IMG/VR virus record: IMGVR_UViG_3300043425_000676
Coordinates: 1-64,000 of that record
Direction: 5' to 3' (one strand)
DNA length: 64,000 nt
Origin: a virus
Position numbers and translations under genes: made by a program. The notes beneath the pieces were generated by a model. That model did not search any database and was not told the origin of the DNA. It saw only the letters and a list, made by a program, of their open reading frames with translations. The first letter of the stretch is position 1, and every line of letters starts with the position of its first letter. This document shows positions 38,207-64,000 of this stretch, in pieces.

Positions 38207-39577
38207 CTATTCAAACTGAAGCATATCGCTGCTTTTGCCGACTGCCGCATCGATTCGCGCACGAGCAAGCTCGATGTATTCGGCTTCGCGTTCAATTCCG
38301 ACGAACCGAAAACCTTCAAGAATAGCTGCCTTGCCTGTGGATCCTGAGCCGGTGAACGGATCGAGAACAAGTCCGTTTGGCGGCGTGACAAGTCGGCAAA
38401 GGTAACGCATCAGGTCGGTCGGCTTGACCGTGGGGTGGACGTTCTTGCGATTCGTGACAAATCTGCTAGTTACGTCATTTCCTGTATCCCACTCTGCGTT
38501 TTCGGGATTGCGCCTGCCGGACATAGACGACGATGCTTTCGAGTTAAAAGCATCCAAGCCTTCATCTCGGTCTTTCTTGCTTGCCTTCGCGCAATAGAAG
38601 AATCTGGCTGCGCTGCCGGAATCGCCTTCATGGAATCTTGGTGTGCCAAGCGTATTTGCCGCGCTGCCATAGATTTTGTTTTCCGTTCTTGGTTGGCCCG
38701 TAAGGCTTCCGCTTGTCGTCTCAGGAAACAACGCCAGCACCTCATCACTTCCATCGTGGATGAAGTTTGCAGGGAAACGGCCCAATTGCTCAGCCTTAGC
38801 AACCGCTTCATTGCCGCGAGCCTTGCAAGCCTCGATCGCTTCGCTGTCGTGTTTCCAAGGCCTGTCCCACCCCTCTGTGGTTGTGCTGATCCTGCCGCCG
38901 CCTAGCTTGTCCCCGTTCGCCTCCACCCTACACCCATCGATATTCAACCCGCCCGTTCCGTGGGCTAGCACATTCGCGGCGACTGTTGTGGGAAAAGGCT
39001 TACGAGCCAATATGATTGGCTCGTAAGCTGGTTTGAGTGCAGTTCCCCAACCTTGCCATTGTGTAGCTGCTTCGGTTGTCGGGATTGTTGTGTAAGCGTT
39101 CCTGCCGGATTCATCACCCCAAGTGCCACCACCGTCTCGTTTACCATCTTCAAGGCGTAGTAGGCGATCACCCCCTCGTTTGAGTGGGCCGACCTGCCGT
39201 TCCGCCCCAGCGGCCTTGTCAATCGCCTTGCTCACATCCAGCGATTTCGGAAAACCCGAGCCATATACCCACATGAGGCAGTCTCTAATCTCCCAACCAG
39301 CATCCTCAATGGCGCAGGCGAGTCGGTGGTACGTCCTCGTACCACCGAACGCCAGAAGATGCGCGCCCGGCTTTGCGACCCGCAAAGCCGCTTCCCAAAA
39401 CGGCATCCCAGGTACGCCGTGATCCCACTGTTTGCCCATAAAGGCCAACCCATAGGGCGGGTCGGTCACGATTGCGTCAACCGAACAGTCCGCAAAAGTT
39501 TTGAGTACGTCTAGGCAATCGCCATGGTGCAATGTGTAGCAATTCATCAAAATGTCCCGTGTAATTGCGCTACTCAA
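38207..39577 (-). CDS. DNA methyltransferase, beta class (N6-A/N4-C)
   Basis: VTDPPY, HPTVKP, LDPFTGSGSTG. Confidence 0.92.
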   Translation of the reverse strand: MSSAITRDILMNCYTLHHGDCLDVLKTFADCSVDAIVTDPPYGLAFMGKQWDHGVPGMPFWEAALRVAKPGAHLLAFGGTRTYHRLACAIEDAGWEIRDCLMWVYGSGFPKSLDVSKAIDKAAGAERQVGPLKRGGDRLLRLEDGKRDGGGTWGDESGRNAYTTIPTTEAATQWQGWGTALKPAYEPIILARKPFPTTVAANVLAHGTGGLNIDGCRVEANGDKLGGGRISTTTEGWDRPWKHDSEAIEACKARGNEAVAKAEQLGRFPANFIHDGSDEVLALFPETTSGSLTGQPRTENKIYGSAANTLGTPRFHEGDSGSAARFFYCAKASKKDRDEGLDAFNSKASSSMSGRRNPENAEWDTGNDVTSRFVTNRKNVHPTVKPTDLMRYLCRLVTPPNGLVLDPFTGSGSTGKAAILEGFRFVGIEREAEYIELARARIDAAVGKSSDMLQFE

Positions 39578-40742
39578 AAAGAACGTTTTGTTTCAATTTA
39601 TCAGCTTTTTGTACCGCCGAATCAATTCGATCGACAGCCAGCTTGATGTACTCTGGATTCAACTCAATGCCGACGTATTTTCTGCCATTCAAGATTGAAA
39701 CCTCGCCCGTGGTTCCGCTTCCGTTAAACGGATCGAGAATAACACCACCTTTGCGGGAGCCAGCAAGGACGCAAGGCTCAATTAGCGCAGGAGGAAATGT
39801 GGCAAAGTGAGCGCCTTTGTACGGTTTTGTGGTGACAGTCCAAACGGAGCGTTTGTTTCTGCCTTTTTCTAGGTCTACCGTCATGTCCCCAAAGTCGTTG
39901 TCGTAATTATGACCCTGCATACTTTCTTTGCTTCCTCCGCCGTTTTGAGCTCTTTTCCATCGGTATTTAGCTCGCTCGTGCGTTGCTTTGCTGCATGGCT
40001 CTTTGATCGCCTCATTGTCGAAGTAGTACCTTGCCGACTTGCTCAGCAAAAAAACGTACTCGTGAGATTTGGTACAGCGATCGGTGACGCTTTCAGGCAT
40101 TGGGTTGGGTTTGTGCCAGATGATGTCTTGGCGTAGATACCAACCATCGGCTTGCAAGGCAAAAGCAACGCGCCAAGGGATGCCAATGAGGTCTTTGGTT
40201 TTTAGCCCAACAGGAGTGCCGATCCGAGGAACGCTATTCTGAGCCTCGGGGTTGTTTGCGCCAACACCAGGGTTTGTGGATTGCTGGCGATCCGCTTTTG
40301 TGCCAGTGGCATAACTATCCCCAAGATTCAGCCACAGCGTCCCGTCGTCTCTAAGCACCCTCCGGACTTCACGAAACACCGAAACCAATTTAGCTACATA
40401 GGCATCCGGTGTCGGCTCTAAACCAATTTGACTATCAACCCTGATAGCACCGCACTTGCCGCACTTATCCTTGTACGGAATCCACAAAGCGTCTTTGTCC
40501 AGTCTGCCCTCAGAAGTTCGACTCCCACCATCGCAAGCGTTTGCAGCCTCAGCAAGATTGCGCCGTTGACGAATCTCTTTTTCTCGATGATCGCAACCAG
40601 GGTCGCCACCCTCCCACTTTGCCGTCCCGTAATCGCGCAAGCCGAAATACGGAGGCGACGTTACGCAACAATCAACCGCCCCTTGCTCCATCGATCGAAG
40701 CACAGACAAACAATCACCGCAATGCAATGTGTAAGGTTTCAT
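39570..40742 (-). CDS. DNA methyltransferase, beta class (likely N4-cytosine)
   Basis: VTSPPY, WHKPNPMPESVTDR, HFATFP, LDPFNGSGTTG. Confidence 0.92.
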   Translation of the reverse strand: MKPYTLHCGDCLSVLRSMEQGAVDCCVTSPPYFGLRDYGTAKWEGGDPGCDHREKEIRQRRNLAEAANACDGGSRTSEGRLDKDALWIPYKDKCGKCGAIRVDSQIGLEPTPDAYVAKLVSVFREVRRVLRDDGTLWLNLGDSYATGTKADRQQSTNPGVGANNPEAQNSVPRIGTPVGLKTKDLIGIPWRVAFALQADGWYLRQDIIWHKPNPMPESVTDRCTKSHEYVFLLSKSARYYFDNEAIKEPCSKATHERAKYRWKRAQNGGGSKESMQGHNYDNDFGDMTVDLEKGRNKRSVWTVTTKPYKGAHFATFPPALIEPCVLAGSRKGGVILDPFNGSGTTGEVSILNGRKYVGIELNPEYIKLAVDRIDSAVQKADKLKQNVLFE

Positions 40743-41058
40743 GCCAACAACCTACCATCATTGCCCCGATAACGCAAGTCAAAAATTGGAAGGGAAGCGA
40801 GGGGGTATACCGTGCCACGGCCCCGCGACGGGGCGGGGTCTGGATCGTTTTCCGGTGCGGTGCGGGTGTTCGTCGTCCGCGTCGGTTCCTTCGTCCGTCT
40901 CGCGTCGTCGTCCATCGCGCCACGTTTCAAGCTCGCGAAGCGTGACAAATAGGCTCATAGACTCGCGAAGCTCAGAAACATTAAGAAAACACCACAAAAA
41001 ACACCGCGTCAGACCATGCCACGTGGTCTATACCCGTGGCGACCTGCCGAATTGGCAC

Positions 41059-41754
41059 TTACCGCATCTCGGCAAGCAATCCGCGGATCTCATCGATTGC
41101 CATCCGTTCGCGGCGGATCGTCTCTCGCTCGTCTTCCACCGAGGCGGAAGCCTTCGCAGCCACATCAACGAATTTGCTGTATGCGCGGATCGAGGTTTCC
41201 AGCCAGCCAAGCGCTGACCAACTCGGTGCCGGCTGAAGCGCTCTGGACAGGTCTACGATTGTGAGCCCATCGACCGTCCTCGTGACGCTGAGTCTATTTG
41301 CTTGCACCCATTGGATTTCATGCGCAAGGCTGCTATTCGCGGGCAGTGTGGGCCAGTCCGCCGGGATCGCGTCGAGACCGACCACTCCGGCGTCCTGATT
41401 GCGCGCCCGCGCCTGCGACTCGTCAACCGATTGGACAGGCTCGGCGTGGTGCTCGCCGCTAACGGCTTCGCCCCCCACCTGACTTTCCCGTTGTTCTTCC
41501 ATCGGCGGTTGTGCCGCTGCGATTGCTCGCTTTGCTTCGTCAATCTCCGCTTGCGTCAATGGTGGGTAGAGCGTTTCCAGTTGGCGGTACGTCGTCTCTT
41601 GCGCCTCGTGCTTACTCAGCCCGATGCTTCGAGCCTCCTTCATCAGCCTATCGCGGTCGGTCATGGCTTGCAGCCATCGCCCTTCCGCTCGCAGTCGCGT
41701 CACCACTCGTGACTTCATCGCATCGAGGTCGCTTCCGCTGTCGTTTTCCGCCAT
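41059..41754 (-). CDS. Helical hypothetical protein, candidate terminase small subunit
   Basis: 231 aa helical protein next to a GC-rich non-coding tract; no TerS next to terL; function is an inference. Confidence 0.35.
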   Translation of the reverse strand: MAENDSGSDLDAMKSRVVTRLRAEGRWLQAMTDRDRLMKEARSIGLSKHEAQETTYRQLETLYPPLTQAEIDEAKRAIAAAQPPMEEQRESQVGGEAVSGEHHAEPVQSVDESQARARNQDAGVVGLDAIPADWPTLPANSSLAHEIQWVQANRLSVTRTVDGLTIVDLSRALQPAPSWSALGWLETSIRAYSKFVDVAAKASASVEDERETIRRERMAIDEIRGLLAEMR

Positions 41755-42079
41755 CGTTCGCTCGTTTCTGTGTCTGGTCAGCGCACAAGGATCCCGGGGT
41801 AACCGCTGGTTATTTATCGACGCCGCAACCGAGTCTCCCGACTCCCGAACAACACCATCCAGTGTAGCCCCTCGCGTCTAGCCAGCAGTGTAGGCGTCAG
41901 CCTGCTCACTGGCGGATTGGTCTAGCTCCGGCTAGTCCACTCGGCAACGTCTCGGCCTGTGCTTCCGCCTTGGGCGCTCGGTGACGCTGCATACCGATCA
42001 ATCTGCCCACCACCTTACCGACCGATCTGGCCACCGTCAAGAAATTCCAAAATATTTTGCTATTTGGGGTTGATTCTAC

Positions 42080-42108
42080 TTGTCGATATGCTCTCCATGG
42101 AGTAGAGT
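42080..42108 (+). promoter_or_regulatory. Putative sigma70-like early promoter
   Basis: TTGTCG-17 nt-TAGAGT at the strand-divergence point, followed by hairpin GGGGC-ATCGT-GCCCC near the expected start site. Confidence 0.45.
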
Positions 42109-42170
42109 ACCCATGGGGGCATCGTGCCCCGCAGTAGTGAGACACTGTTTTTTCTAGGAGATTTCTGATT

Positions 42171-42602
42171 ATGGCGAATTTTGATTCCGATCCGCGTGAT
42201 TTTGCTCTGGAAATGGTCGAAAACGAGGTAGTTTCGGCAGACCATTTATTGCTTTGCTGCCTCAAGTACATGAGCGCCGACGAACTTTCACCGCGTTTTG
42301 CTTGCGACGAGCCAGACCTTTGCATTGATTGCGGCGGTTCTCACATTGAGGAGGGCACCTGCCTGGGTTGCCAGCTCGCCGAGTGGCTAGACACCTTCGA
42401 TGATTCAGAATACGACGTTTCCGCCATGCGTGACGATGTTTCTACCAACAATCTCGAAGTGGGAGACGATGACGCGGCGGAAAAATACCGCCATGAAAAC
42501 ATCGTTCGCGAGTCGATTGTCAATGGCAACTACACCCAAGCCAAAGAGCAGTGCCAACGCTTCGGGCTCGACTACGAGGCGATCCTAAGCGAATGCAACT
42601 AG
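42171..42602 (+). CDS. Very acidic early protein with Cys knuckle
   Basis: SD AGGAGA; D/E-rich; CIDCGG...CLGC. Confidence 0.65.
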   Translation: MANFDSDPRDFALEMVENEVVSADHLLLCCLKYMSADELSPRFACDEPDLCIDCGGSHIEEGTCLGCQLAEWLDTFDDSEYDVSAMRDDVSTNNLEVGDDDAAEKYRHENIVRESIVNGNYTQAKEQCQRFGLDYEAILSECN

Positions 42603-42649
42603 ACTCGGGGGGGTTAGGCCGAGTGCGGAGGGGTTCGCCCCTCGTCCCC
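42603..42649 (+). ncRNA. Pistol-ribozyme-like core lacking P1 (copy 1)
   Basis: ACTCGG-G-GGGG-TTAGG-CCGAGT-GCG-GAGGGG-TTCG-CCCCTC-GT-CCCC. Confidence 0.7.
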
Positions 42650-42693
42650 GCTGTCGCGTGACAGCAAGCAACAACGAAACAGGAGAAACGACG

Positions 42694-42912
42694 ATGCCAA
42701 AGACCATCGACCAAACCAATCCAATCGAGCGCAATATCCGCGAAGCAATCGCCAGGATGAAGCGATCTAAGACTACTGGCGCCTCCATGGATTGCCTTTT
42801 CTTGAACACTCGTACTGCTGGCGTGACCGTGCCGGTCGGCATGTACCGTGCCGAGTTTGAGAAGCTCGCCCATCGCGTGGCAAGGGATCTGGCGTTCGAT
42901 CTTTACTGCTAG
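42694..42912 (+). CDS. Hypothetical early protein
   Basis: SD CAGGAGA; MPKTIDQ... Confidence 0.6.
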   Translation: MPKTIDQTNPIERNIREAIARMKRSKTTGASMDCLFLNTRTAGVTVPVGMYRAEFEKLAHRVARDLAFDLYC

Positions 42913-42953
42913 CAGGGGTTAGGGCTAGTGCGGCGCCTTCGGGCGCGTCCCCT
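42908..42953 (+). ncRNA. Pistol-ribozyme-like core lacking P1 (copy 2)
   Basis: GCTAGC-A-GGGG-TTAGG-GCTAGT-GCG-GCGCC-TTCG-GGCGC-GT-CCCC-T; stems covary with copy 1. Confidence 0.7.
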
Positions 42954-43019
42954 CGTCGACACTGTGTCGGCGGATCACCGCAGGCGTGAGACCCTGCCAA
43001 GCTTTCAGGAGAATTGACC

Positions 43020-43478
43020 GTGAAGACTGTATTTGAGACAAGATTTGCCAAAGTCGGCGAGACAGAGGAACACTACGGCGGAGTACGTTCAGCCCGAGTC
43101 GGCGGAGTCGATGACGCGAAGGAATTTGCGAGAAAGCACCTCGTACCGTATTTTGCCGACAAATGCGATGCAGAGGAATTTTTGATTGTCACCCTAGATA
43201 CCCAACACCGCCCAATTCGGATTGTCCGCGTTACTCGCGGGACGGTGAACGCAAGCCTAGTCCACCCCCGAGAAGTGTTCCGTCCAGCTATTGCCGACTG
43301 TGCGGCTGCGATGTTTCTGGTTCACAATCACCCATCTGGCGATCCGACCCCTAGTCAAGAAGATCGAGCGGTTACACGGCGTCTCAAGGACGCTGCCGCG
43401 ATCATTGGTATATCGATCCTAGATCACCTGATCGTCGGAGACACCATCGTCTCACTGGCTGAATACGGCTGGTTTTAG
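43020..43478 (+). CDS. RadC-like JAB/MPN domain protein
   Basis: E...GTVNASLVHPREVFR...HNHPSGDPTPSQED...LDHLIVG. Confidence 0.92.
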   Translation: MKTVFETRFAKVGETEEHYGGVRSARVGGVDDAKEFARKHLVPYFADKCDAEEFLIVTLDTQHRPIRIVRVTRGTVNASLVHPREVFRPAIADCAAAMFLVHNHPSGDPTPSQEDRAVTRRLKDAAAIIGISILDHLIVGDTIVSLAEYGWF

Positions 43479-43489
43479 TCCCTGTTCTC

Positions 43490-43581
43490 CCGCAAGTCTC
43501 GGCACACTTGCGGCAAAGTCTCACGAGTGCCGACGCGGTTGGCCGATGCGATATTCGGCTGTTTTTTCCACCAACACGAGA
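43490..43581 (+). ncRNA. Full-topology pistol-like ribozyme with extended P3
   Basis: P1 CCGCAAGT/ACTTGCGG; pseudoknot TCGGCA/TGCCGA; CAAAG linker; P2 TCTC/GAGA; ACGAG loop; GCG; P3 GTTGG/CCAAC. Confidence 0.55.
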
Positions 43582-43597
43582 ACAGGAGACTCGAAAA

Positions 43598-44221
43598 ATG
43601 CTCAAAGTTACACCAGCAGGCGATAACGCCAAGCTAGGCTCAGGAGTCGGAACAACCTACCGCCCAGTGGGAATTACATGCCCAAACACCTGCCCGCTAT
43701 TGGGTAACGGTTGCTACGCCCAACGCGGAAACGTCGCAATCCACGCGGCTAGATCGAAGAACGATAATCACGATTTGATGAAGCTCGCGGCAAACACGCT
43801 GGTTCGCCACCTAGTCTCGGGCGATTGGCTCAAGGCTACCAAGAACGGGCGCAAGATCCTTGACCGCGTATTTGTTCGCGCTGTTATCGCCCTACACCAA
43901 AAGTGCCCCTGGCTCACGGGATGGGGATACACTCACGCGGCGACCGCATGGCAGGCAGCAGGCATCACGCCGGCAGACCTGCCCAGTAATTTACACATCC
44001 TCGCATCATGCGACACGGCAGAGCAGAAAGCCACCCACAACGCCAACGGATGGAGGACAGCCCGAGTTATCGACGAACTGGCAGATAGGCAACCCGACGA
44101 GTTTGTGTGCCCAGTGGATGCAGCCAAGCGGAAGGGCATTCCAGCGGATCGCAGAACCAATTGCGCAAGATGCAAGGCTTGTTTTGCCACCGATCGTAAC
44201 ATTGCTTTTTTGAAGTTTTAA
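43598..44221 (+). CDS. Cys-rich phage protein (Gp88-like, radical-SAM-related)
   Basis: TCPNTCPLLGNGCYA, RHLVSGD, WGYTH, VCP...NCARCKAC. Confidence 0.65.
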   Translation: MLKVTPAGDNAKLGSGVGTTYRPVGITCPNTCPLLGNGCYAQRGNVAIHAARSKNDNHDLMKLAANTLVRHLVSGDWLKATKNGRKILDRVFVRAVIALHQKCPWLTGWGYTHAATAWQAAGITPADLPSNLHILASCDTAEQKATHNANGWRTARVIDELADRQPDEFVCPVDAAKRKGIPADRRTNCARCKACFATDRNIAFLKF

Positions 44222-44238
44222 CCAAGGAGATTCTGACA

Positions 44239-44658
44239 ATGGAAATTAACCTAGAACAAAGACTGTACGTCATTCCATCCGGCAAGGGCTACTCGTGCTT
44301 GGGGTTTGACGTATGCGAACAGCGCAGAGTGTCTTATATGCAATGGCTTGGACTGCCCGTACAACCCGTAGAAATTGGCACGCATCACGCTTATGCGGAA
44401 TACCAACGCGCCTTGGAACTGGTGCGAATACGGTGTAACTCTCCCGGTGTTAGATGCACAGTCGAATTGGTACCTGAGTTAGTGCGGTACGAACGTCGTC
44501 GAGTCGAGGTTACTTACCCCGATGGCACGAAGACCCGCTTTATTGTTGGGGTGTCGACTGGATTTATTCCAGTTCATCTTGAAATCAAGACGCGACGATC
44601 TACCGGCGGAAGTCAAGCGTACTTCCCGCCTGGATCAACAGTACGGCTGGTGGGTTAA
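44239..44658 (+). CDS. Hypothetical early protein
   Basis: SD AAGGAG; RFIVGVSTGFIPVHLEIKTRRSTGG motif. Confidence 0.65.
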   Translation: MEINLEQRLYVIPSGKGYSCLGFDVCEQRRVSYMQWLGLPVQPVEIGTHHAYAEYQRALELVRIRCNSPGVRCTVELVPELVRYERRRVEVTYPDGTKTRFIVGVSTGFIPVHLEIKTRRSTGGSQAYFPPGSTVRLVG

Positions 44659-44663
44659 AGCAA

Positions 44664-44722
44664 GACGTTTCGCGCACGAGACCACTGGCTTGCTAGTGGT
44701 CGACTGCCTGCAGCGTCGCAGG
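44664..44722 (+). ncRNA. Unclassified pseudoknot motif (copy A)
   Basis: GACGTT...stem...CCTGC-AGCGTC-GCAGG; matches 45218-45274 with covariation. Confidence 0.6.
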
Positions 44723-44753
44723 GTATTCAAGGCTTTTAATGGAGATTTGTGTT

Positions 44754-44933
44754 ATGAAGGTGACAATCGAAAACAATGAGTTGGTTATTTGCATACCCGT
44801 TGAGAACCCTCCACGACCAAGTGCAAGCGGTAAGACCCTCATCGTAGCCACGAGCAGCGGAAATCAAACCACGGACGCAATTGTCAATGGTCAATCTGTG
44901 GTGGTCGGACTGAACGCATACATTAAGAGGTAA
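44754..44933 (+). CDS. Small beta protein (SxSGKTLIVAT family), paralogue 1
   Basis: 59 aa; 45/59 identical to 47701-47880. Confidence 0.75.
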   Translation: MKVTIENNELVICIPVENPPRPSASGKTLIVATSSGNQTTDAIVNGQSVVVGLNAYIKR

Positions 44934-44935
44934 GC

Positions 44936-45217
44936 ATGAAATACTTCATTGAGCGAACTATTGGTGCTCATTCCGACACACTCGAAAAGCTCTGGGAAGG
45001 TAATGATTTACCTTTGTTCAGCCGCAATGGACATCCGTATTGCTTCAGTTGCTACAGAGAAGCTCAAAGAGTGCTCTGGAGACTTCAAGCACGATACCCC
45101 GTAACGATCGATACTCCTAGATCACCATCTGTGCCAATTGATTATTCCTTGGAAAGCATAGACACATCGGCAGCTCAAGAGTACAGACCGCAACAACACT
45201 TAGGCATGTTTGTTTAA
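44936..45217 (+). CDS. Hypothetical protein
   Basis: 93 aa ORF. Confidence 0.5.
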   Translation: MKYFIERTIGAHSDTLEKLWEGNDLPLFSRNGHPYCFSCYREAQRVLWRLQARYPVTIDTPRSPSVPIDYSLESIDTSAAQEYRPQQHLGMFV

Positions 45218-45274
45218 GACGTTTTGCGCCTGAGGGGGCTCGCCCGAACCCCTAACGGCCTGCAACGTCGCAGG
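45218..45274 (+). ncRNA. Unclassified pseudoknot motif (copy B)
   Basis: GACGTT...stem...CCTGC-AACGTC-GCAGG, starting right after the TAA stop. Confidence 0.6.
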
Positions 45275-45301
45275 AACACAACACAACAGGAGAACAGAAC
45301 G

Positions 45302-45706
45302 ATGGCAGATCGATTTTACGGCACAGTTTATTTGGGTGGGAAGCTAACTCAAGAGCAGTTCAAGAAGTGCGAGGAATTGCTAGAGGATTGCTTGGAACAC
45401 GGCGACGAGCTAAACGAGGATGGTTCAGCGTCATTTTCCGAATGCACTAGCAGCGACTTCCAAGGCATCGTCGAGTATTGCACATCCAACGGTATCGCCT
45501 TGTCCTTGCATTGGGACGCCAAGTGGGAACAAGAAGCAAACGTGGAATACTGGATGGACGGCGAATACAAGCAGTTTTTCGCGGCTGGTGATGGAGACAT
45601 CGCCATTAGGCTGGCGGAGCTGCAAGAGCACCCCGATATGACCATTGCCGAGTTTATCGCCAAGATGCAGATTCCCGAGTTCCCAACCTTCGAAATTGCT
45701 GACTGA
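45302..45706 (+). CDS. Acidic hypothetical protein
   Basis: SD CAGGAGA; MADRFYG... Confidence 0.65.
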   Translation: MADRFYGTVYLGGKLTQEQFKKCEELLEDCLEHGDELNEDGSASFSECTSSDFQGIVEYCTSNGIALSLHWDAKWEQEANVEYWMDGEYKQFFAAGDGDIAIRLAELQEHPDMTIAEFIAKMQIPEFPTFEIAD

Positions 45707-45806
45707 TGCGCGTCGGCGACTCGAACGCGAGGGGATTGCCCGATCCCTAAGCGCCCGAGCCCCTGGCAGTCAGGATCGGTAGCATCAAACACAGGAGACA
45801 TAAGCT

Positions 45807-46025
45807 ATGTATAAGCCTGGAACGTTTGTTCTTGACGGCGTTTCGTATGACCTAGCCTTTACGCGCCGACGCTACAGCAACACGACATTCACATGGGTAG
45901 CTGTCAAACTCAACGGAGAGTGGGTTGATCTAGGCGATCCATGGCAATGTATTACGCCAAAAAAGGCTGAGATTGAGGCAGGGTTGAGAATTGTTCTGGC
46001 TGCTAATTCAGTAGCCTTGGTTTAG
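45807..46025 (+). CDS. Hypothetical protein
   Basis: SD CAGGAGA; 72 aa. Confidence 0.6.
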   Translation: MYKPGTFVLDGVSYDLAFTRRRYSNTTFTWVAVKLNGEWVDLGDPWQCITPKKAEIEAGLRIVLAANSVALV

Positions 46026-47643: not shown

Positions 47644-47700
47644 TTCACGCTGACACGGTGTCGGCAATGTTTGTTGTTTGTTTTTACAGGAGATTTGATT

Positions 47701-58414: not shown

Positions 58415-61400
58415 TTATTTTTGATTCAATTTTTGCGTAATTTGACGCAATCTTTCGACCAAAGCGTCCTTCATCACAAGTGCCTGACCCTTGCGCTCGT
58501 ACAGGGTTTTGTTGTTCCTGCGCCAATATGCCAGCAGTAGCAGCCTTGCCTCTTCTGGCCCGATCTTGCCGTCGATCATGGTCTTAAGTGCCTTGTCTCT
58601 CTCGGCAACAGCTTTGGCGTAGGTCGTATCGTCCTGGAAGTCCTTGCGTTTTGGATTGGCTGAAGCAGAGTAGACCAGCGATTGTTTGCGTTGCTCTCGG
58701 CGTTGCTTGAATCGCTCAAGTTCATCCTTGGTCAAGAAGTCCTTGTAGCCTGGATCCTTCGAGTCCCATTCCATCGCTTCGAGATCCTTCTCGATCAGCT
58801 TTTTGCGTTCCTCTGCGTTGGCGTTCTTGTACTTGGTCTTAGGCCCATAGGTTCCACCACTCATCCCGAGAATGTTTAGCATGGCGATCGCTGGGCCTTC
58901 TGGCACACCACGAGCCATCAGCGTTTCAACGACTTCCCGTCCAGCCAGAGGGATGAACAGTCCCGTGGTAGCCGTGGCTACCGTTGCTTTGTTGCCAACA
59001 ACATCTTCTCCAGCAATGATGTTGATGCCAGCGGCGGGGATCGGTGCGAGTTTCTTGCGGATAAAGTTGGCTGTCAGATCGAACGTACTATCCTGACCGT
59101 ACTTCTTCTTCTCTCCCCGAATGTCAATAATTTCGCCTTCCATCGTCTTTTTCTGCCCAAGTCCAACTTGAGAAAGGAATGTGACGATTTGACCAAAGCC
59201 GGACAGTGGATCGATTCGCGTCTCTCCAATCTTGAGTTTCATGAAGTCCGTCGATCGCGGATCCAGTTCGACGGTTGGCGATTCCTCATCATCGTCGTCG
59301 TACAGCAATCCTCCGAGTGCCACGGCGGTTGCTAAGAATCCGGCAACACCAAGGGCGTGTCGAGCGTATTCCATGGCGATGAGCCGCTTAACCCTGCCGG
59401 AAACCTTGGCATCCTGAAGCATGTAGAACGGCAACCCTAGATATGCGAAGCGAGACGCGAGGTATCTAGGTGCGAACAAGACGGTGCTGAGGTTTGCCGC
59501 GACCTTGTTATAACTCCCGAAGTCCCCTCTACCTGTCGATACGTTGATAAAATTGGCAATCGCCTTGGCTTCGTCCAGCGTCACCTGACCGTTTGCCCCG
59601 AGGGTATCGACGAAATAGGTAAACAGCCGGAACCGCAAGCCGTTGAGGTAGGTCGTGTAAGCCCTGGCGGACATTGCCACGGGTGTCAAAACCGCCTTGC
59701 TGAACTTGTTGATCTTTGTGCCCTTCTTGCCGATGCCGTCCCTTGCCCATCGACCCATGTAGGCTTCTTCTTGGTTCTGGATCCTGCCAGCACTAGCCGT
59801 AACCTCAAGTTTGGCTTGTACCGCAAACGAATAGAGCCGGTGCTTGCTCATCTGTTCGGCGATATTAAACTCTTCCTCTTGGCTGAAGATAGCCCGTCGC
59901 ATTTCCTTTGCAGCCTCTCTGGCAAGCATTGGGTGAGCGAACGTCCCTGGGCCGCCCTGGCGGAACACCGCCGACAAGTCCATGGATGTCATAATCGCTC
60001 TTGCCAGGAATGAAGTCTCCCGAGCCCAGTCGAAGACCCTCTCTTTGGGGCTCAACTGCGACAATCGCCATTCTGCCGCCAGGCGGAAGAACTCCTCTTT
60101 TATTTCCTCAAGTCGCCTCTTGTGCTTGGTTATCTCGTCGCTTTCGAGTGGGGCTTTCTTGGGTTTTGCTCCAAAGTAGCCGTGCGCCATGCGATCTTCG
60201 TAATCCGCAATCCTGTTTTTCAGGTTGGCGATATAAGCTACCTCTGCTCGCTCTTGAGGGCTCATCTTGGGGTTCTGTTGTGCCTTAATCGCGTCTCTCT
60301 GAGCACGCAACGATTCGAGCTCTGCTTGCTTGGCTTTGAGTTCTGCGCTCGTTACGGGCTCAGCACGACCTCTAGGGGAGAAATCTCCGGTGCGGAGTTG
60401 TTCCGTAACCCTTTCGATCTCCCGATCGGTAGCCCTGAGAGCTGCTGCAAGCCGTTGCTCCTTGGTCGCTCCCTGCCGAGGAAACATCTCGCGGTAGTCT
60501 TTGGTGACTTCCGCTAGGATTCGCTTTTGCTCAGCCAAATCCTTGTCTTTGCTTGCCAAATCGACCTGCGTCTTGGTGATCGGCTTGCCTTCAGCCATAG
60601 CCTTCCGCAAATCCCTGATGCGGTTTGCCGTTGCCCGCATTGCGGCACCAATTGATGTCTTCAGGAGTCCCTGTTCATCCTCGGTGTAAAGGTTACTATT
60701 GCGCTTCATCTCGTTGACTTGTCGCACTAACGCTCGCTCATCGTCGGACATTTCGCGACGCTCGACACCCGTTGCCTTGGGTCGAATACCGGCTTCCAAA
60801 TCCTTGATCTTCGCCATTTGGAGCAACTGACCGTTGATGTCGCGTTGCAATCGCTTGTTTGCGTCTGGAGAAAGCGGGGTAAATTGCCCATATCCGGTCA
60901 GCGCGTCCATTGTCTGCCGCTCGGTGATCTCCGGGTCGATCTCCTGGAGCGATCTCCAGACGGCATCTAGGACGACTTCAACGCGATCTTCTTGATCCGC
61001 CGTGACGATTCCGCTTTCAATAATCGCCATCTCGATCTCACGGGCGATACGGGTAAGCCCCTCAACATCCCCAGGGCTGACCATCGGAATCGGGATTTCA
61101 CCTTGCGCCTTGATCTTCTCCCATGCCGTCGCAAACGCAGCCTGAGCCTGAACAGGCAGTTCGCCACCTATCTCTTTGCGCAAATTGGCTAGCAGTTCAC
61201 CGTAGGAGAATACGCCAGCTTCGACGTATGCCATGACGACACTCTCGGCTTCCTCAGCCATTCGTTCGTCTTCGGTCTGCATCAGCGTGTCAGAGCCACC
61301 CTTGGGCTTGAAGATGCTTGAGAACTTCTTGACGAAGCTCTGTACCGCCGTGGCGGCTTTTTGCCGTGGCTCGCTCTTGGTCTTGGTCTTGGGTGCTTTC

Positions 61401-64000
61401 TTCAAGTCATCGTCGACCACTTGTCGCACACCGTCTTGCCGTTGAAGGTCGGCAATCACCTGCTCGGCTTTCGCCAAGTCGCCCTGAACCTTCGCCAGTT
61501 CCGCAGCCAACTCAGCGATTTGCCTTGTCTGCTCTGCGCTAAGTCTCTCACCGCCGTTGGCAGCCCTGCCCCGACGCAACAACGCAGCACGAGAGAAATC
61601 CGATCGCAAGGTGATTTTCCTGGCTCCAAATGCCCTTGCTTGCAGGGTTCCGATCTTTTTGTCGACCTTCTCCATTTCCTCCATGGCATCCACTATCAGG
61701 TCAACTTCCCTGAGTGCCTTGGCTGCGGCAACGCTGTCTTTTCGGTCTTTGGCTGCAAACAATCGATCTTCAGCGGCTTCGCGAGCGTTTTCCAGCCCCC
61801 GGTAGTGCATTTGCAAAACAGCTACTTCAATCTGGTCTGGGGATCTCAGTTTGTCGTCCAGTTCTTTAACGAGTCGATCGCCGAGGGTAGGATCCTGTCT
61901 GAGCCTGTGCCCAGCTTCCTCCAGCCACTCATCCATTGTCTCGGATTCTGCATCCACCAGCCCTGGCGACCCTCGAAGCAGAGCCATGTAGTTCGCCACT
62001 TCGTTTTGGATGCTCGTCACTGGATTTGCAGGACGCAAGACGGGCTCGCCCCTGGAAACAGGCTCGCCGCCCTTGCCGCCACGCTGGTCGGCTGGCAACC
62101 CTCGCTGAACCAACTTGTCGAACAGATCGCGGATTTCCTTGGGGAGAGGCGTTCCGGTGATCTCTTGCACACCGCTGTAGATTTCTCGCATCCAACGGGA
62201 GATCTTTTGGAACAGCGAATCCAGGACGCTATTCGGGGAGTCACCCTCGTACCAATACTGCTCCCACATCTTGGCGGCTTTTTCTTCCGCCTTCACATCC
62301 CACTTCGTTACCCATTTGCCATTCACAAAGCTTCCAGCACCGCTCGCCTTCTCTAACGCTTCGATTTCCTCATCGGTGATGTCGGCACGCTTTTCGGCTG
62401 GCACGCTCTTGTCGAGCAGGAACAGTCGCATCGGATGGAAGAACTCGTGGATGAACGTCGAGAAGTCAGCCTTGTTTGTGGCTCCGATCAGTGCTCGATG
62501 TGCGCTGATGAACTTCGTCCAGCCCTTGACGCTGCCGCCTTGCTGTTGGTTCTGCATCAAGATGTTCGGGTTGTTCGGGTCGAACATGCCGCGATTGCCG
62601 GTGGCGGACTTGATTTGGGTTGGGCGTAACGCCACCCACACATCCTTCCCTACGCCTCCAACACCTTTGAATCGCTCGTCTTGAACTCCGTCAAAGCCAG
62701 CCTCTTCAAGCTTCTCAATGACAGCATTATTAAATTCCACCCTGTCTTCAATGCCTAAACTTACTACTTCTCTTCGGGCAGCAGCCAGATCCTTCAAGCT
62801 AGCTGGGTTTTTGACACTCAAGTAGAACGGTCTTGTTTTACCAAGAGCTAGTGCGCCAGATTCTTCAGAAGTAAACCAAAAACCCGGAGATACACTGTAA
62901 TTTGCGTCGAATACATCAAACTCTTTATCTGTTCCGTGGTAAACAACCAGAGGTTTTCCGTCCTTGTCCACCACCTTGCTATCGCCAAACCATCGCACAA
63001 AATTCTGCCATGTCGGCTTGCCGTTTGGAGCGATCTTTTCGCCCCACTTGTCTCGAGCGTATGACACGACTGCAGGGCGATAGTCGCTCTCGTTGAACTT
63101 GTATCCTGACGGTTGATCGAAATCTTCTTGTGCCATCGCCTGCCCAGGCACCGGCGTACCATACGGAGCAAACCCGATCTCATTGCGACCGAATGCCGTG
63201 ATGTCTTCGAGCGTAATTCCAGCCTCGATCTGATCATCGGACAGCACCCTACCGAACGCCCTCTTTGCCATCGTGACAACTTGGTCGCGTGTGATGCCCG
63301 AGACTGCTGCCGCCTGCTGCACACCATCCATGCCTGCGACTTCTGCCGCTAAGCGAAGGAAACGGCTCACCTGCAACGTGCGCTCGCGTCCAATGGTCTT
63401 GACCGAGTAGGCAACGAAGTCACGTAGATTGGTGATTCCAGCGTCCTGAGCGGCGATGGAGAGGTTCAACGCCTCCGACCACATATTCTCGTTTACGTCT
63501 GGTGCGGTCTGGTAAAGCGGGGGCGGTAGATTGCGCAGGTTGTCTGAAAGCTCGGCTTGATTCTTTTCGTCATTAGCAGCTTTAGCTTCAACGTATATAG
63601 GTTCTCCTTCCTCGTTCAGAACCTTGCTAGCCTCAATCGCTACAGATTCGCCGTTTTCTTCGTACAAAACGTGCGTGTCAGATCTATAGCCAGTAACAGC
63701 ATGTTCCTCGATGTCATAAGAAACATTTTCTTGCGCAGGCTCACCTGTCATTTGCTCCTTAAACATCTCTGCTTGCATGTCATCAACAGCCTGCCTACCT
63801 GAAGCACGCTTGCGCTTTCGAATATAAATTGAAGTACCGACTGGGGCTATATTCCTAAACCAAGACGGAGAGCCCTCTGGGTTTGCCTCGATCTCTGCGA
63901 CAAGCGACTTGAGTTTCTTCTGCTTTATATCAAGCTGCTCCTGTCGCACAAACGGAAGCTTTGCAGACTCATTAGCCGACTTAACAAACGCCTGCTTTTT
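58415..64000 (-). CDS. C-terminal part of a giant polyvalent ejection protein containing an ADP-ribosyltransferase-like (ART-PolyVal) domain and a HExxH motif
   Basis: Frame open to the window end; NFVRWFGDSKVVDKDGKPLVVYHGT...GFDGV...QIKSATGNRGMFDP; ADFSTFIHEFFH; long helical C-terminus. Confidence 0.85.
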   Translation of the reverse strand, partial: KKQAFVKSANESAKLPFVRQEQLDIKQKKLKSLVAEIEANPEGSPSWFRNIAPVGTSIYIRKRKRASGRQAVDDMQAEMFKEQMTGEPAQENVSYDIEEHAVTGYRSDTHVLYEENGESVAIEASKVLNEEGEPIYVEAKAANDEKNQAELSDNLRNLPPPLYQTAPDVNENMWSEALNLSIAAQDAGITNLRDFVAYSVKTIGRERTLQVSRFLRLAAEVAGMDGVQQAAAVSGITRDQVVTMAKRAFGRVLSDDQIEAGITLEDITAFGRNEIGFAPYGTPVPGQAMAQEDFDQPSGYKFNESDYRPAVVSYARDKWGEKIAPNGKPTWQNFVRWFGDSKVVDKDGKPLVVYHGTDKEFDVFDANYSVSPGFWFTSEESGALALGKTRPFYLSVKNPASLKDLAAARREVVSLGIEDRVEFNNAVIEKLEEAGFDGVQDERFKGVGGVGKDVWVALRPTQIKSATGNRGMFDPNNPNILMQNQQQGGSVKGWTKFISAHRALIGATNKADFSTFIHEFFHPMRLFLLDKSVPAEKRADITDEEIEALEKASGAGSFVNGKWVTKWDVKAEEKAAKMWEQYWYEGDSPNSVLDSLFQKISRWMREIYSGVQEITGTPLPKEIRDLFDKLVQRGLPADQRGGKGGEPVSRGEPVLRPANPVTSIQNEVANYMALLRGSPGLVDAESETMDEWLEEAGHRLRQDPTLGDRLVKELDDKLRSPDQIEVAVLQMHYRGLENAREAAEDRLFAAKDRKDSVAAAKALREVDLIVDAMEEMEKVDKKIGTLQARAFGARKITLRSDFSRAALLRRGRAANGGERLSAEQTRQIAELAAELAKVQGDLAKAEQVIADLQRQDGVRQVVDDDLKKAPKTKTKSEPRQKAATAVQSFVKKFSSIFKPKGGSDTLMQTEDERMAEEAESVVMAYVEAGVFSYGELLANLRKEIGGELPVQAQAAFATAWEKIKAQGEIPIPMVSPGDVEGLTRIAREIEMAIIESGIVTADQEDRVEVVLDAVWRSLQEIDPEITERQTMDALTGYGQFTPLSPDANKRLQRDINGQLLQMAKIKDLEAGIRPKATGVERREMSDDERALVRQVNEMKRNSNLYTEDEQGLLKTSIGAAMRATANRIRDLRKAMAEGKPITKTQVDLASKDKDLAEQKRILAEVTKDYREMFPRQGATKEQRLAAALRATDREIERVTEQLRTGDFSPRGRAEPVTSAELKAKQAELESLRAQRDAIKAQQNPKMSPQERAEVAYIANLKNRIADYEDRMAHGYFGAKPKKAPLESDEITKHKRRLEEIKEEFFRLAAEWRLSQLSPKERVFDWARETSFLARAIMTSMDLSAVFRQGGPGTFAHPMLAREAAKEMRRAIFSQEEEFNIAEQMSKHRLYSFAVQAKLEVTASAGRIQNQEEAYMGRWARDGIGKKGTKINKFSKAVLTPVAMSARAYTTYLNGLRFRLFTYFVDTLGANGQVTLDEAKAIANFINVSTGRGDFGSYNKVAANLSTVLFAPRYLASRFAYLGLPFYMLQDAKVSGRVKRLIAMEYARHALGVAGFLATAVALGGLLYDDDDEESPTVELDPRSTDFMKLKIGETRIDPLSGFGQIVTFLSQVGLGQKKTMEGEIIDIRGEKKKYGQDSTFDLTANFIRKKLAPIPAAGINIIAGEDVVGNKATVATATTGLFIPLAGREVVETLMARGVPEGPAIAMLNILGMSGGTYGPKTKYKNANAEERKKLIEKDLEAMEWDSKDPGYKDFLTKDELERFKQRREQRKQSLVYSASANPKRKDFQDDTTYAKAVAERDKALKTMIDGKIGPEEARLLLLAYWRRNNKTLYERKGQALVMKDALVERLRQITQKLNQK

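What the first reader, a model, noticed from the sequence alone, without database searches (positions are those of the whole stretch)
42603..42953. Two natural pistol-ribozyme cores lacking the P1 hairpin: a possible minimal ribozyme of about 46 nt
Seen: copy 1 is ACTCGG-G-GGGG-TTAGG-CCGAGT-GCG-GAGGGG-TTCG-CCCCTC-GT-CCCC and copy 2 is GCTAGC-A-GGGG-TTAGG-GCTAGT-GCG-GCGCC-TTCG-GGCGC-GT-CCCC. The loops are identical, while the 6-bp helix and P3 differ by compensatory changes. Established: pistol = P1 (loop forms a 6-bp pseudoknot), A-rich linker, P2, UUARG loop (G33), pseudoknot strand, G40-C41-G42, P3, G-U cleavage site, P2'. Everything from P2 onward matches, but P1 and the A-minor linker are replaced by one nucleotide in both copies. 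Predicted cuts are G42644/U42645 and G42947/U42948, each leaving a hairpin near the new 5' end of the next gene. In copy 2 the upstream TAG stop lies inside the pseudoknot strand, so translation could gate folding. I am not aware of a described P1-less natural pistol.
Basis: partly seen in the sequence, partly recalled or inferred. Interest (0 to 1): 0.9.

Follow-up and report, generated by a model that had tools for sequence, protein, structure and literature searches.

The report
Phage pistol-type ribozymes lacking stem P1
Two gaps between small genes of an uncultured phage each hold a 46-47-base RNA that keeps the cutting core of the known "pistol" self-cleaving ribozyme but lacks a stem that defines that class; relatives in other phages show it is a conserved natural variant, though cutting itself is untested.

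Summary
They belong to a real family. A covariance model built here finds 86 copies (67 distinct) in phage and metagenome contigs. Standard pairs make up 99.5% of cells, and 13 of 17 pairs show compensatory changes. UUARG, GCG and GU never vary, although retrieval partly selected for them.

The strand that pairs with the pseudoknot segment lies 0-1 nt before P2. There is therefore no room for P1 or the A-rich linker, and the upstream 32 nt are no more structured than coding controls. Rfam's Pistol model matches only positions 24-68, at 20.3 bits (threshold 34.5).

Copies start at or next to the upstream stop codon in 54 of 72 contexts. They cluster in one operon per phage. In two relatives they share that operon with twister and hammerhead ribozymes.

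Most likely this is an active P1-less pistol variant that cuts polycistronic early mRNA at G42644/U42645 and G42947/U42948. Cleavage is not shown. Six literature searches found no description.

This scan noted the same design earlier on other DNA (e1-5973984, e1-5319485). Two other notes describe pistol-type RNAs with P1 moved to the 3' end. I could not tell whether these are the same family. The 3' hairpin here is optional.

The parts
42603..42649 (+). Copy 1, 47 nt: PK 5' strand 42603-08, linker G42609, P2 5' 42610-13, UUAGG 42614-18, PK 3' strand 42619-24, GCG 42625-27, P3 hairpin 42628-43, predicted scissile G42644|U42645, P2 3' 42646-49
   Evidence: Sequence. R1 model 62.0 bits, E 5e-10. 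Rfam Pistol positions 24-68, 20.3 bits. Nested MFE gives PK+P3.
42908..42953 (+). Copy 2, 46 nt: PK 5' strand 42908-13 (contains stop TAG 42910-12), A42914 (can pair with U42953 as a 5th P2 pair), P2 5' 42915-18, UUAGG 42919-23, PK 3' strand 42924-29, GCG 42930-32, P3 42933-46, predicted scissile G42947|U42948, P2 3' 42949-53
   Evidence: Sequence. R1 model 55.6 bits, E 9e-9. Nested MFE gives P2+P3. No Rfam match at E<=10.
42650..42665 (+). Hairpin directly after copy 1 (GCUGUC GCGU GACAGC); optional accessory module
   Evidence: Fold. A comparable hairpin follows 44 of 71 family copies.
42954..42972 (+). Hairpin directly after copy 2 (CGUCGACA CUG UGUCGGCG); optional accessory module with a conserved CAYNRUG top
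   Evidence: Fold. Pattern matches. The same hairpin type stands alone at 47649-47665.
42980..42997 (+). Second downstream hairpin, GCAGG-CGUGAGAC-CCUGC, with a conserved 8-nt loop; separate module before the RadC ribosome-binding site
   Evidence: the loop (A/C)GUGAGAC occurs in 25 of 69 distinct 3' flanks, always closed by at least 4 bp, with 5 stem types.
42171..42602 (+). Upstream gene (143 aa, no Pfam family); its TAG stop 42600-02 abuts copy 1
42694..42912 (+). 72-aa gene between the two copies (AGGAG before ATG 42694); its stop lies inside copy 2
43020..43478 (+). RadC-like JAB-domain gene downstream of copy 2
   Evidence: Pfam PF04002, E 1.3e-40.

Best explanation
Each element is a natural pistol-type self-cleaving ribozyme from which stem P1 and the A-rich linker are missing. 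A linear 6-nt strand at the 5' edge plays the part of the P1 loop. It pairs with the segment between P2 and P3 and is joined to P2 by 0-1 nt. All other parts of the pistol core are kept. These are the 4-5 bp P2, the UUAGG turn (equivalents of U29-G33), GCG (G40 general base, C41, G42), P3, and the fixed 2-nt G|U junction. Transcribed within the early operon, the RNA should fold and cut between G42644/U42645 and G42947/U42948. The upstream message would then end in a compact pseudoknot with a 2',3'-cyclic phosphate. The next gene's message would begin with 5'-OH-UCCCC, followed here by a hairpin and the ribosome-binding site. Shown here: sequence conservation, covariation of all three helices, absence of P1, strand and position relative to genes, and co-occurrence with known ribozymes. 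Inferred: the pistol-like 3D fold, catalysis, the cut sites, and the effect on mRNA stability or expression.
For: There are 86 copies (67 distinct rows) in 56 sources. Standard pairs make up 99.5% of cells, and 13 of 17 pairs change on both sides (PK 4/6, P2 2/4, P3 7/7). None of 500 shuffles reached these values, and partners slid by 1-3 columns gave 40-60% paired. The PK helix has 17 different sequences. G-U pairs at PK position 1 in 34 of 66 rows fit RNA on the gene strand only. In an unbiased test, 35 of 45 core-pattern matches in viral contigs have the complement at offset 0-1, against 2 of 121 in genome contigs. As a model control, 134,876 bases of unrelated RadC-bearing phage loci gave only 2 hits, both on contigs already known to carry the motif. 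Rfam Pistol aligns the region to model positions 24-68. Relatives score 22-33 bits. The literature supports the parts that are kept. The G40.(G33-C41) triple is catalytic and A32G is as active as wild type (PMC6154101 passages). The PK helix is coaxial with P1 and P3, P2 lies beside and parallel to it, and the linker makes A-minor contacts with P1 (PMC11300833 passages). P1 plus linker therefore forms one detachable detour. On context, copies cluster within 3-4 kb in each of 5 phage records. They sit between a stop codon and the next ribosome-binding site. In L008 and L015 the same-strand operon also holds a Twister-P5 and two Hammerhead_II above Rfam threshold. Both hammerheads begin at the upstream stop codon, and the twister lies 29 nt after one.
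Against: In a canonical pistol, mutations that disrupt P1 cause substantial loss of activity (Harris 2015, PMC4604425 passages). Neither copy reaches Rfam's gathering score, and copy 2 is not reported at all. Folding energies are no better than shuffles, with z from -0.17 to +0.78. The invariance of UUARG, GCG and GU is partly by construction, because loci were retrieved with patterns that contain them. Only 3 of the 86 copies differ from the first retrieval pattern, all in P2 (my reading of the rows printed). P2 is almost always GGGG/CCCC, which suggests recent common descent and means fewer independent events than copies. The claim that a 0-1 nt link can span from the PK end to P2 rests on published descriptions, not on measured coordinates.
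Confidence: 0.7

Rival explanations
1. The RNA is a rearranged rather than P1-less pistol. The hairpin directly 3' of P2 takes P1's place by stacking on the pseudoknot helix or on P2, so the functional unit is about 63 nt and P1 has 'moved to the back'. Catalysis and cut site would be unchanged.
For: Both window copies have such a hairpin 0-1 nt after P2. 44 of 71 copies have one within 6 nt, and 3' flanks are more structured than coding controls (median -7.7 vs -4.9 kcal/mol, p 0.019). P2's distal end should lie near the place P1 occupies (inference). Two earlier scan notes describe pistol-type RNAs in phage gene gaps with P1 moved to the 3' end; I could not tell whether they concern this family.
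Against: 27 of 71 copies lack the hairpin, including all 5 in L006 and all 3 in L016. Its offset varies from 0 to 5 nt. Its 3-5 nt loops cannot form the pseudoknot, whose partner lies upstream. The same conserved hairpin stands alone after a stop codon at 47649-47665, before the operon at 42116-42130, and in L175. That pattern indicates an independent module.
Confidence: 0.15
2. The RNA is a conserved pseudoknot that does not cleave. It could be a pistol-derived 3'-end stability element, or a protein-binding or regulatory structure of the early operon.
For: No cleavage evidence was obtainable. P1 is reported as very important for canonical pistols. The element is embedded among other conserved, unassigned intergenic RNA modules: the RGUGAGAC-loop hairpin and a second pseudoknot family.
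Against: Every residue that the papers read here tie to pistol catalysis is kept across 67 distinct copies, while the helices drift freely. The GU junction length is fixed. The slot is shared with validated self-cleaving classes in related phages. A stability or binding element has no reason to keep the GCG, UUARG and GU set.
Confidence: 0.13
3. The pseudoknot is a recoding signal (stop-codon readthrough or frameshift stimulator), because it begins at the stop codon.
For: The stop codon abuts or overlaps the element in 54 of 72 contexts, and UAG is the commonest stop, 43 of 67.
Against: In copy 1 the frame hits the UAG inside UUAGG four codons after the stop, and the same register applies to the commonest layout (stop at -3, 1-nt linker). 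After copy 2 the frame ends at a TGA about 35 codons on and is out of frame with the next gene (reading). The conserved residues match a ribozyme core, not a spacer plus pseudoknot.
Confidence: 0.01
4. The element is a chance similarity or a DNA-level repeat.
For: The short core pattern alone has many chance matches: 119 of 121 in genome contigs.
Against: Covariation, G-U pairs, constant orientation with genes, and offset-specific complementarity all argue against it. A block-shuffled control of the structure-only descriptor gave 10 hits with random cores, against 86 with the consensus core in real loci.
Confidence: 0.01

Closest known systems
Pistol self-cleaving ribozyme class (Rfam RF02679; Weinberg 2015, not readable here; Harris 2015, PMC4604425)
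   Same: It has the 6-bp pseudoknot onto the P2-P3 junction, P2, a UUARG turn with purine 32 and G33, G40-C41-G42, a P3 hairpin, a strictly 2-nt G|U junction and P2'. It occurs in phage intergenic regions and is often multi-copy.
   Different: It has no P1 stem and no A-rich linker. The pseudoknot 5' strand is a linear segment joined to P2 by 0-1 nt. Total length is 45-62 nt (mode 47) against the 68-position Rfam model. P2 is nearly fixed as GGGG/CCCC. P3 usually closes with G-C rather than the model's U-G. The last PK 3'-strand base is U or C rather than A. It scores below Rfam's threshold.
Pseudoknot-containing hammerhead ribozyme (Zhan et al. 2024, PMC11300833)
   Same: It has the same helix connectivity and overall fold as pistol, so it shows that this scaffold is reused in nature.
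   Different: It keeps the hammerhead core and a helix equivalent to P1. The window elements lack hammerhead core sequences, and no hammerhead match appeared even at E<=10.
Minimal forms of other ribozyme classes, such as minimal versus extended hammerhead (PMC11300833 passages) and twister, whose stem P1 is reported dispensable for cleavage (PMC6154101 passage)
   Same: They set a precedent that a peripheral helix conserved across a class can be dispensable for chemistry.
   Different: Those cases were shown biochemically. Here the loss is a natural, conserved architecture with no assay yet.

Membership tests
Pistol ribozyme (RF02679) | Stem P1 hairpin whose loop carries the pseudoknot 5' strand | tested here: not met
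   The PK 5' strand is 0-1 nt from P2 in 35 of 35 structured matches and in all aligned rows except L177, whose linker may be 2 nt. No 3' strand of P1 can fit. The upstream 32 nt are no more structured than controls (-5.32 vs -5.38 kcal/mol, p 0.51).
Pistol ribozyme (RF02679) | A-rich linker between P1 and P2 (A-minor contacts with P1) | tested here: not met
   It is replaced by a single U, A or G, which pairs as a 5th P2 pair in 28 of 66 copies.
Pistol ribozyme (RF02679) | [quoted passage not shown] | tested here: met
   100% of cells are paired and 4 of 6 pairs have double changes, with 17 helix sequences.
Pistol ribozyme (RF02679) | P2 and P3 helices | tested here: met
   P3 has 7 of 7 pairs with double changes. 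P2 has 2 of 4 (GGGA/UCCC, AGGG/CCCU), otherwise GGGG/CCCC.
Pistol ribozyme (RF02679) | Conserved core nucleotides: UUARG loop, G40-C41-G42, and a strictly 2-nt GU junction | tested here: met
   These are invariant in 66 of 67 distinct rows of A4. In the one exception (L016:7197) the long P3 is misaligned, and the GU is present when read directly. Retrieval patterns contained these letters, so the invariance is partly by construction. The structure-only descriptor gave 86 consensus cores and 13 background hits, against 10 hits in the shuffled control.
Pistol ribozyme (RF02679) | Score at or above Rfam's gathering threshold (34.5 bits) | tested here: not met
   The window has 0 matches at gathering. 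Copy 1 scores 20.3 bits over positions 24-68 and copy 2 is not reported at E<=10. There were 0 Pistol matches at gathering in 17 related loci. The best relative scores 32.9 bits, using a fortuitous upstream hairpin as 'P1'.
Pistol ribozyme (RF02679) | Mg2+-dependent self-cleavage at the G|U step giving a 2',3'-cyclic phosphate and a 5'-OH | not testable with these tools
Hammerhead ribozyme, including the pseudoknot form | Hammerhead catalytic core sequences | tested here: not met
   No hammerhead family matched 42550-43020 at E<=10. The core motifs, recalled from general knowledge, are not visible.

The most novel reading that the evidence does not exclude
The P1-less pistol is a fully active 45-47-nt ribozyme whose folding is set by translation. 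Its first helix starts at or inside the upstream stop codon, so a ribosome terminating there would cover the pseudoknot strand and P2, and each message could cut itself only when the upstream gene is not being translated. That would make it a natural translation-coupled mRNA-processing switch and one of the smallest natural self-cleaving RNAs.
Probability: 0.15. Interest if true: 0.85.

Novelty: new variant of a known kind. Interest (0 to 1): 0.62.

Why it matters
Pistol ribozymes are defined by three stems and a pseudoknot formed by the P1 loop, and P1 was reported as very important for activity. A conserved natural lineage without P1 or the linker would have three consequences. It would redefine the minimal pistol fold at about 45 nt. 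It would show that standard annotation misses such copies, since Rfam's threshold excludes all of them. It would also supply a compact module for RNA engineering. The fixed placement between a stop codon and the next ribosome-binding site sits in operons that elsewhere use twister or hammerhead ribozymes in the same slot. That placement gives a concrete setting in which to test what phage self-cleaving ribozymes are for, which remains an open question.

Tried and rejected
1. Canonical P1 upstream. Perfect complements of the PK strand at offsets 2-40 totalled 4 among 45 matches. Upstream folding energy equals that of coding controls. Three sub-threshold Rfam alignments do use an upstream hairpin as 'P1', but in the one printed, and in L014 read by eye, the loop does not carry the pairing strand.

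2. Thermodynamic support. Z-scores were not significant, so energy alone supports nothing.

3. N4-like hairpin promoters as an explanation for the 3' hairpins. I rejected this because the giant 4,504-aa ORF matches DarB-like antirestriction (phrog_10089), not a virion RNA polymerase.

4. Readthrough or recoding. Rejected on reading frames.

5. Comparison of the orthologous slot through RadC relatives. Of the 80 loci fetched, 2 carried the motif, and both lie on contigs already found to hold it (L001, L005). The set served only as a negative control.

6. Phage database. There was no DNA match for 41000-46000.

7. Literature. Six searches found no P1-less or minimal natural pistol. Weinberg 2015, Ren 2016, Nguyen 2017 and Wilson 2019 are not held, and supplements are closed, so a mention there cannot be excluded. 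I read Harris 2015 (whole-text view, part 1 of 4, plus passages), and passages of PMC11300833, PMC6154101, PMC10085705, PMC6765202, 10.64898/2026.03.07.710320, PMC9901934 and PMC13067846.

8. RNA reads.

Full report
**Observation.** Copy 1 runs from 42603 to 42649 and copy 2 from 42908 to 42953. The loops are identical (UUAGG, GCG, the UUCG cap of P3, and GU). The 6-bp helix differs at three pairs between the copies (A-U/G-U, C-G/A-U, G-C/C-G), and P3 differs throughout. The TAG stop of the 42171-42602 gene abuts copy 1. The TAG of the 42694-42912 gene lies inside the first helix of copy 2. A hairpin follows each copy. A structure descriptor finds no further copy in the 72,061-bp virus record that holds the window.

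**Is it more than chance?** A pattern containing only P2, UUARG, GCG and GU-P2' found 30 viral loci, with 45 matches of which 37 are distinct. Of these 45, 35 (30 distinct) carry a perfect 6-bp complement of the unconstrained N6 segment 0-1 nt upstream of GGGG. All offsets from 2 to 40 together give 4 such complements. The same pattern in bacterial and archaeal genome contigs gave 121 matches in the 120 loci kept. Only 2 of these have the complement, and both lie on one 9-kb contig (L045). The other 119 act as a natural null.

**Family and covariation.** I built a covariance model (R1, pseudoknot helix plus P3) from nine 49-nt copies. It found 40 matches in the window and 31 loci. After a more specific metagenome scan (37 loci), it found 86 matches (67 distinct rows) in 417,998 bases.
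- On that alignment 99.5% of cells are standard pairs.
- 13 of 17 pairs change on both sides: pseudoknot 4 of 6, P2 2 of 4, P3 7 of 7.
- None of 500 shuffles reached the observed values, and partners slid by 1-3 columns gave 40-60% paired.
- The pseudoknot helix has 17 different sequences.
- Its first pair is G-U in 34 of 66 rows, which fits RNA read on the gene strand only.
- The alignment was fitted to the model, but the pseudoknot and P2 columns contain no gaps apart from one single-base insertion column in P2 (L177).
- As a negative control, 134,876 bases of unrelated RadC-bearing phage loci gave only two hits, both on contigs already known to hold the motif.
- A structure-only descriptor that ignores the core letters gave 99 hits in 1.06 Mb. 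Of these, 86 had the consensus core and 13 had random cores, against 10 hits in a block-shuffled copy.

**P1 really is absent.** The pairing strand is separated from P2 by one nucleotide. That nucleotide forms a fifth P2 pair in 28 of 66 copies. No P1 3' strand or linker can therefore exist. The 32 nt upstream, which are the end of unrelated coding sequences, fold no better than coding windows 100-300 nt further up (mean -5.32 vs -5.38 kcal/mol, p 0.51). Copies are 45-62 nt long, with a mode of 47.

**Relation to pistol.** Rfam reports nothing in the window at gathering thresholds. In E-value mode the only relevant match is Pistol, model positions 24-68 of 68, at 20.3 bits (threshold 34.5), and only for copy 1.
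- Relatives score 22-33 bits. Three of the nine sub-threshold matches are full-length alignments that recruit a fortuitous upstream hairpin as P1.
- Harris 2015 defines the class by P1, P2, P3, a pseudoknot from the P1 loop, ten highly conserved nucleotides and a fixed junction length. That paper also reports that disrupting P1 causes a substantial loss of activity.
- The G40.(G33-C41) triple and purine 32 are catalytic, and A32G is about as active as wild type (PMC6154101). The window copies have G at that position.
- The pseudoknot helix stacks between P1 and P3, P2 lies beside and parallel to it, and the linker makes A-minor contacts with P1 (PMC11300833; PMC6154101).
- From this I infer that P1 plus linker is a detour that leaves and returns near the same end of the pseudoknot helix. 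A 0-1 nt bridge to P2 is therefore plausible. This step is inference, not measurement.

**Context.** Among 72 distinct contexts, the stop codon of an ORF of at least 30 codons starts between -5 and +3 of the first nucleotide in 54. It starts between -7 and -18 in 13, and is absent or belongs to a short ORF in 5. TAG accounts for 43 of the 67 stops.
- A Shine-Dalgarno sequence and a start codon appear in most of the printed 3' flanks, with the candidate start codon 1-166 nt downstream.
- In five phage records the copies (5, 3, 4, 3 and 2) lie within 3-4 kb of each other.
- In L008 and L015 the same strand also carries a Twister-P5 and two Hammerhead_II above Rfam threshold. Both hammerheads begin at the stop codon of the upstream ORF, and the twister lies 29 nt after one.
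- The slot is therefore one that validated self-cleaving classes occupy in related operons.
- Neighbouring genes are small and mostly without a family. Two exceptions are RadC-like JAB and DUF7227.

**The 3' hairpin.** 44 of 71 copies have a hairpin (dG <= -5 kcal/mol) starting within 6 nt of P2, while 27 do not, including all copies in L006 and L016. The hairpin often has a conserved CAYNRUG top. The same hairpin stands alone after a stop codon at 47649-47665, at 42116-42130, and in L175. I therefore read it as a separate module. A role as a relocated P1 cannot be excluded for the copies that have it. Two earlier notes of this scan describe pistol-type RNAs with P1 moved to the 3' end, and I could not tell whether they concern this family.

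**Mechanism and rivals.** The best reading (0.7) is an active P1-less pistol variant that cuts the polycistronic early transcript at the G|U step. The rivals are:
- the same ribozyme with the 3' hairpin acting as P1 (0.15);
- a conserved pseudoknot that does not cleave (0.13);
- a recoding signal (0.01), rejected because in copy 1 and in the commonest layout the UAG of UUAGG is in frame four codons after the stop;
- chance (0.01).

**Novelty.** Six full-text searches found no natural or engineered pistol without P1. Four key papers and all supplements could not be read. This scan had already noted the same design on other DNA (e1-5973984, e1-5319485, e1-6223561). Those notes agree with my reading, but I do not count them as independent evidence.

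**Limits.** Cleavage is untested. Retrieval patterns fixed the core letters and P2, so core invariance is partly circular and the family sampled may be one recent lineage. The 3D argument rests on text descriptions of published structures.

Noticed in passing
window 44659-44722 and 45218-45274 (+): A second repeated intergenic RNA sits right after stop codons. The 5' (G/C)ACGUU pairs with the loop of a conserved hairpin CUGC-ARCGUC-GCAG. Between them lie UYGCGC-N-UGAG, a variable hairpin and a short covarying helix (GCG/CGC, GCC/GGC, GCA/UGC). There are 14 distinct copies in the window plus 10 related loci, all followed by a ribosome-binding site. No Rfam match appeared even at E<=10. It occupies the same slot as the ribozymes and is a candidate new ribozyme or processing element.
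   Followed up: partly
window 42132-42151 and 42980-42997 (+); 25 of 69 3' flanks in related loci: A hairpin with a conserved 8-nt loop (A/C)GUGAGAC and covarying 4-5 bp stems (5 stem types) lies between the ribozyme or first hairpin and the next ribosome-binding site. One copy precedes the first gene of the operon. Its function is unknown; a binding site for a phage regulator is one possibility.
   Followed up: partly
window 47649-47665 and 42116-42130 (+): The CAYNRUG-topped hairpin that follows many ribozyme copies also occurs alone, once directly after the stop at 47641-43.
   Followed up: partly
window 43479-43567 (+): After the RadC stop there is a hairpin CCGCAAGU-CUCGGCAC-ACUUGCGG whose loop can pair with GUGCCGA about 20 nt downstream. 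A terminator-like hairpin plus U-run follows at 43540-43567. An earlier same-genome note calls it pistol-like, but it lacks UUARG and has no Rfam match.
   Followed up: partly
L008:5324-5405(-); L015:462-536(-) and 2815-2899(-): A Twister-P5 and two type II hammerhead ribozymes above Rfam threshold lie in the same operons as the P1-less pistol copies of related phages. Both hammerheads begin at the upstream stop codon, and the twister lies 29 nt after one.
   Followed up: partly
window 58415-64000 (-), continuing to about 71930 of the genome (L268:416-13930): A giant ORF of 4,504 aa matches DarB-like antirestriction protein (phrog_10089, 1311.7 bits) with methyltransferase and helicase regions.
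   Followed up: partly
window 38207-39577 and 39570-40742 (-): Two adjacent ORFs (456 and 390 aa) have translations showing DPPY/SPPY-type motifs typical of DNA methyltransferases. This was seen only, and no family search was run.
   Followed up: no
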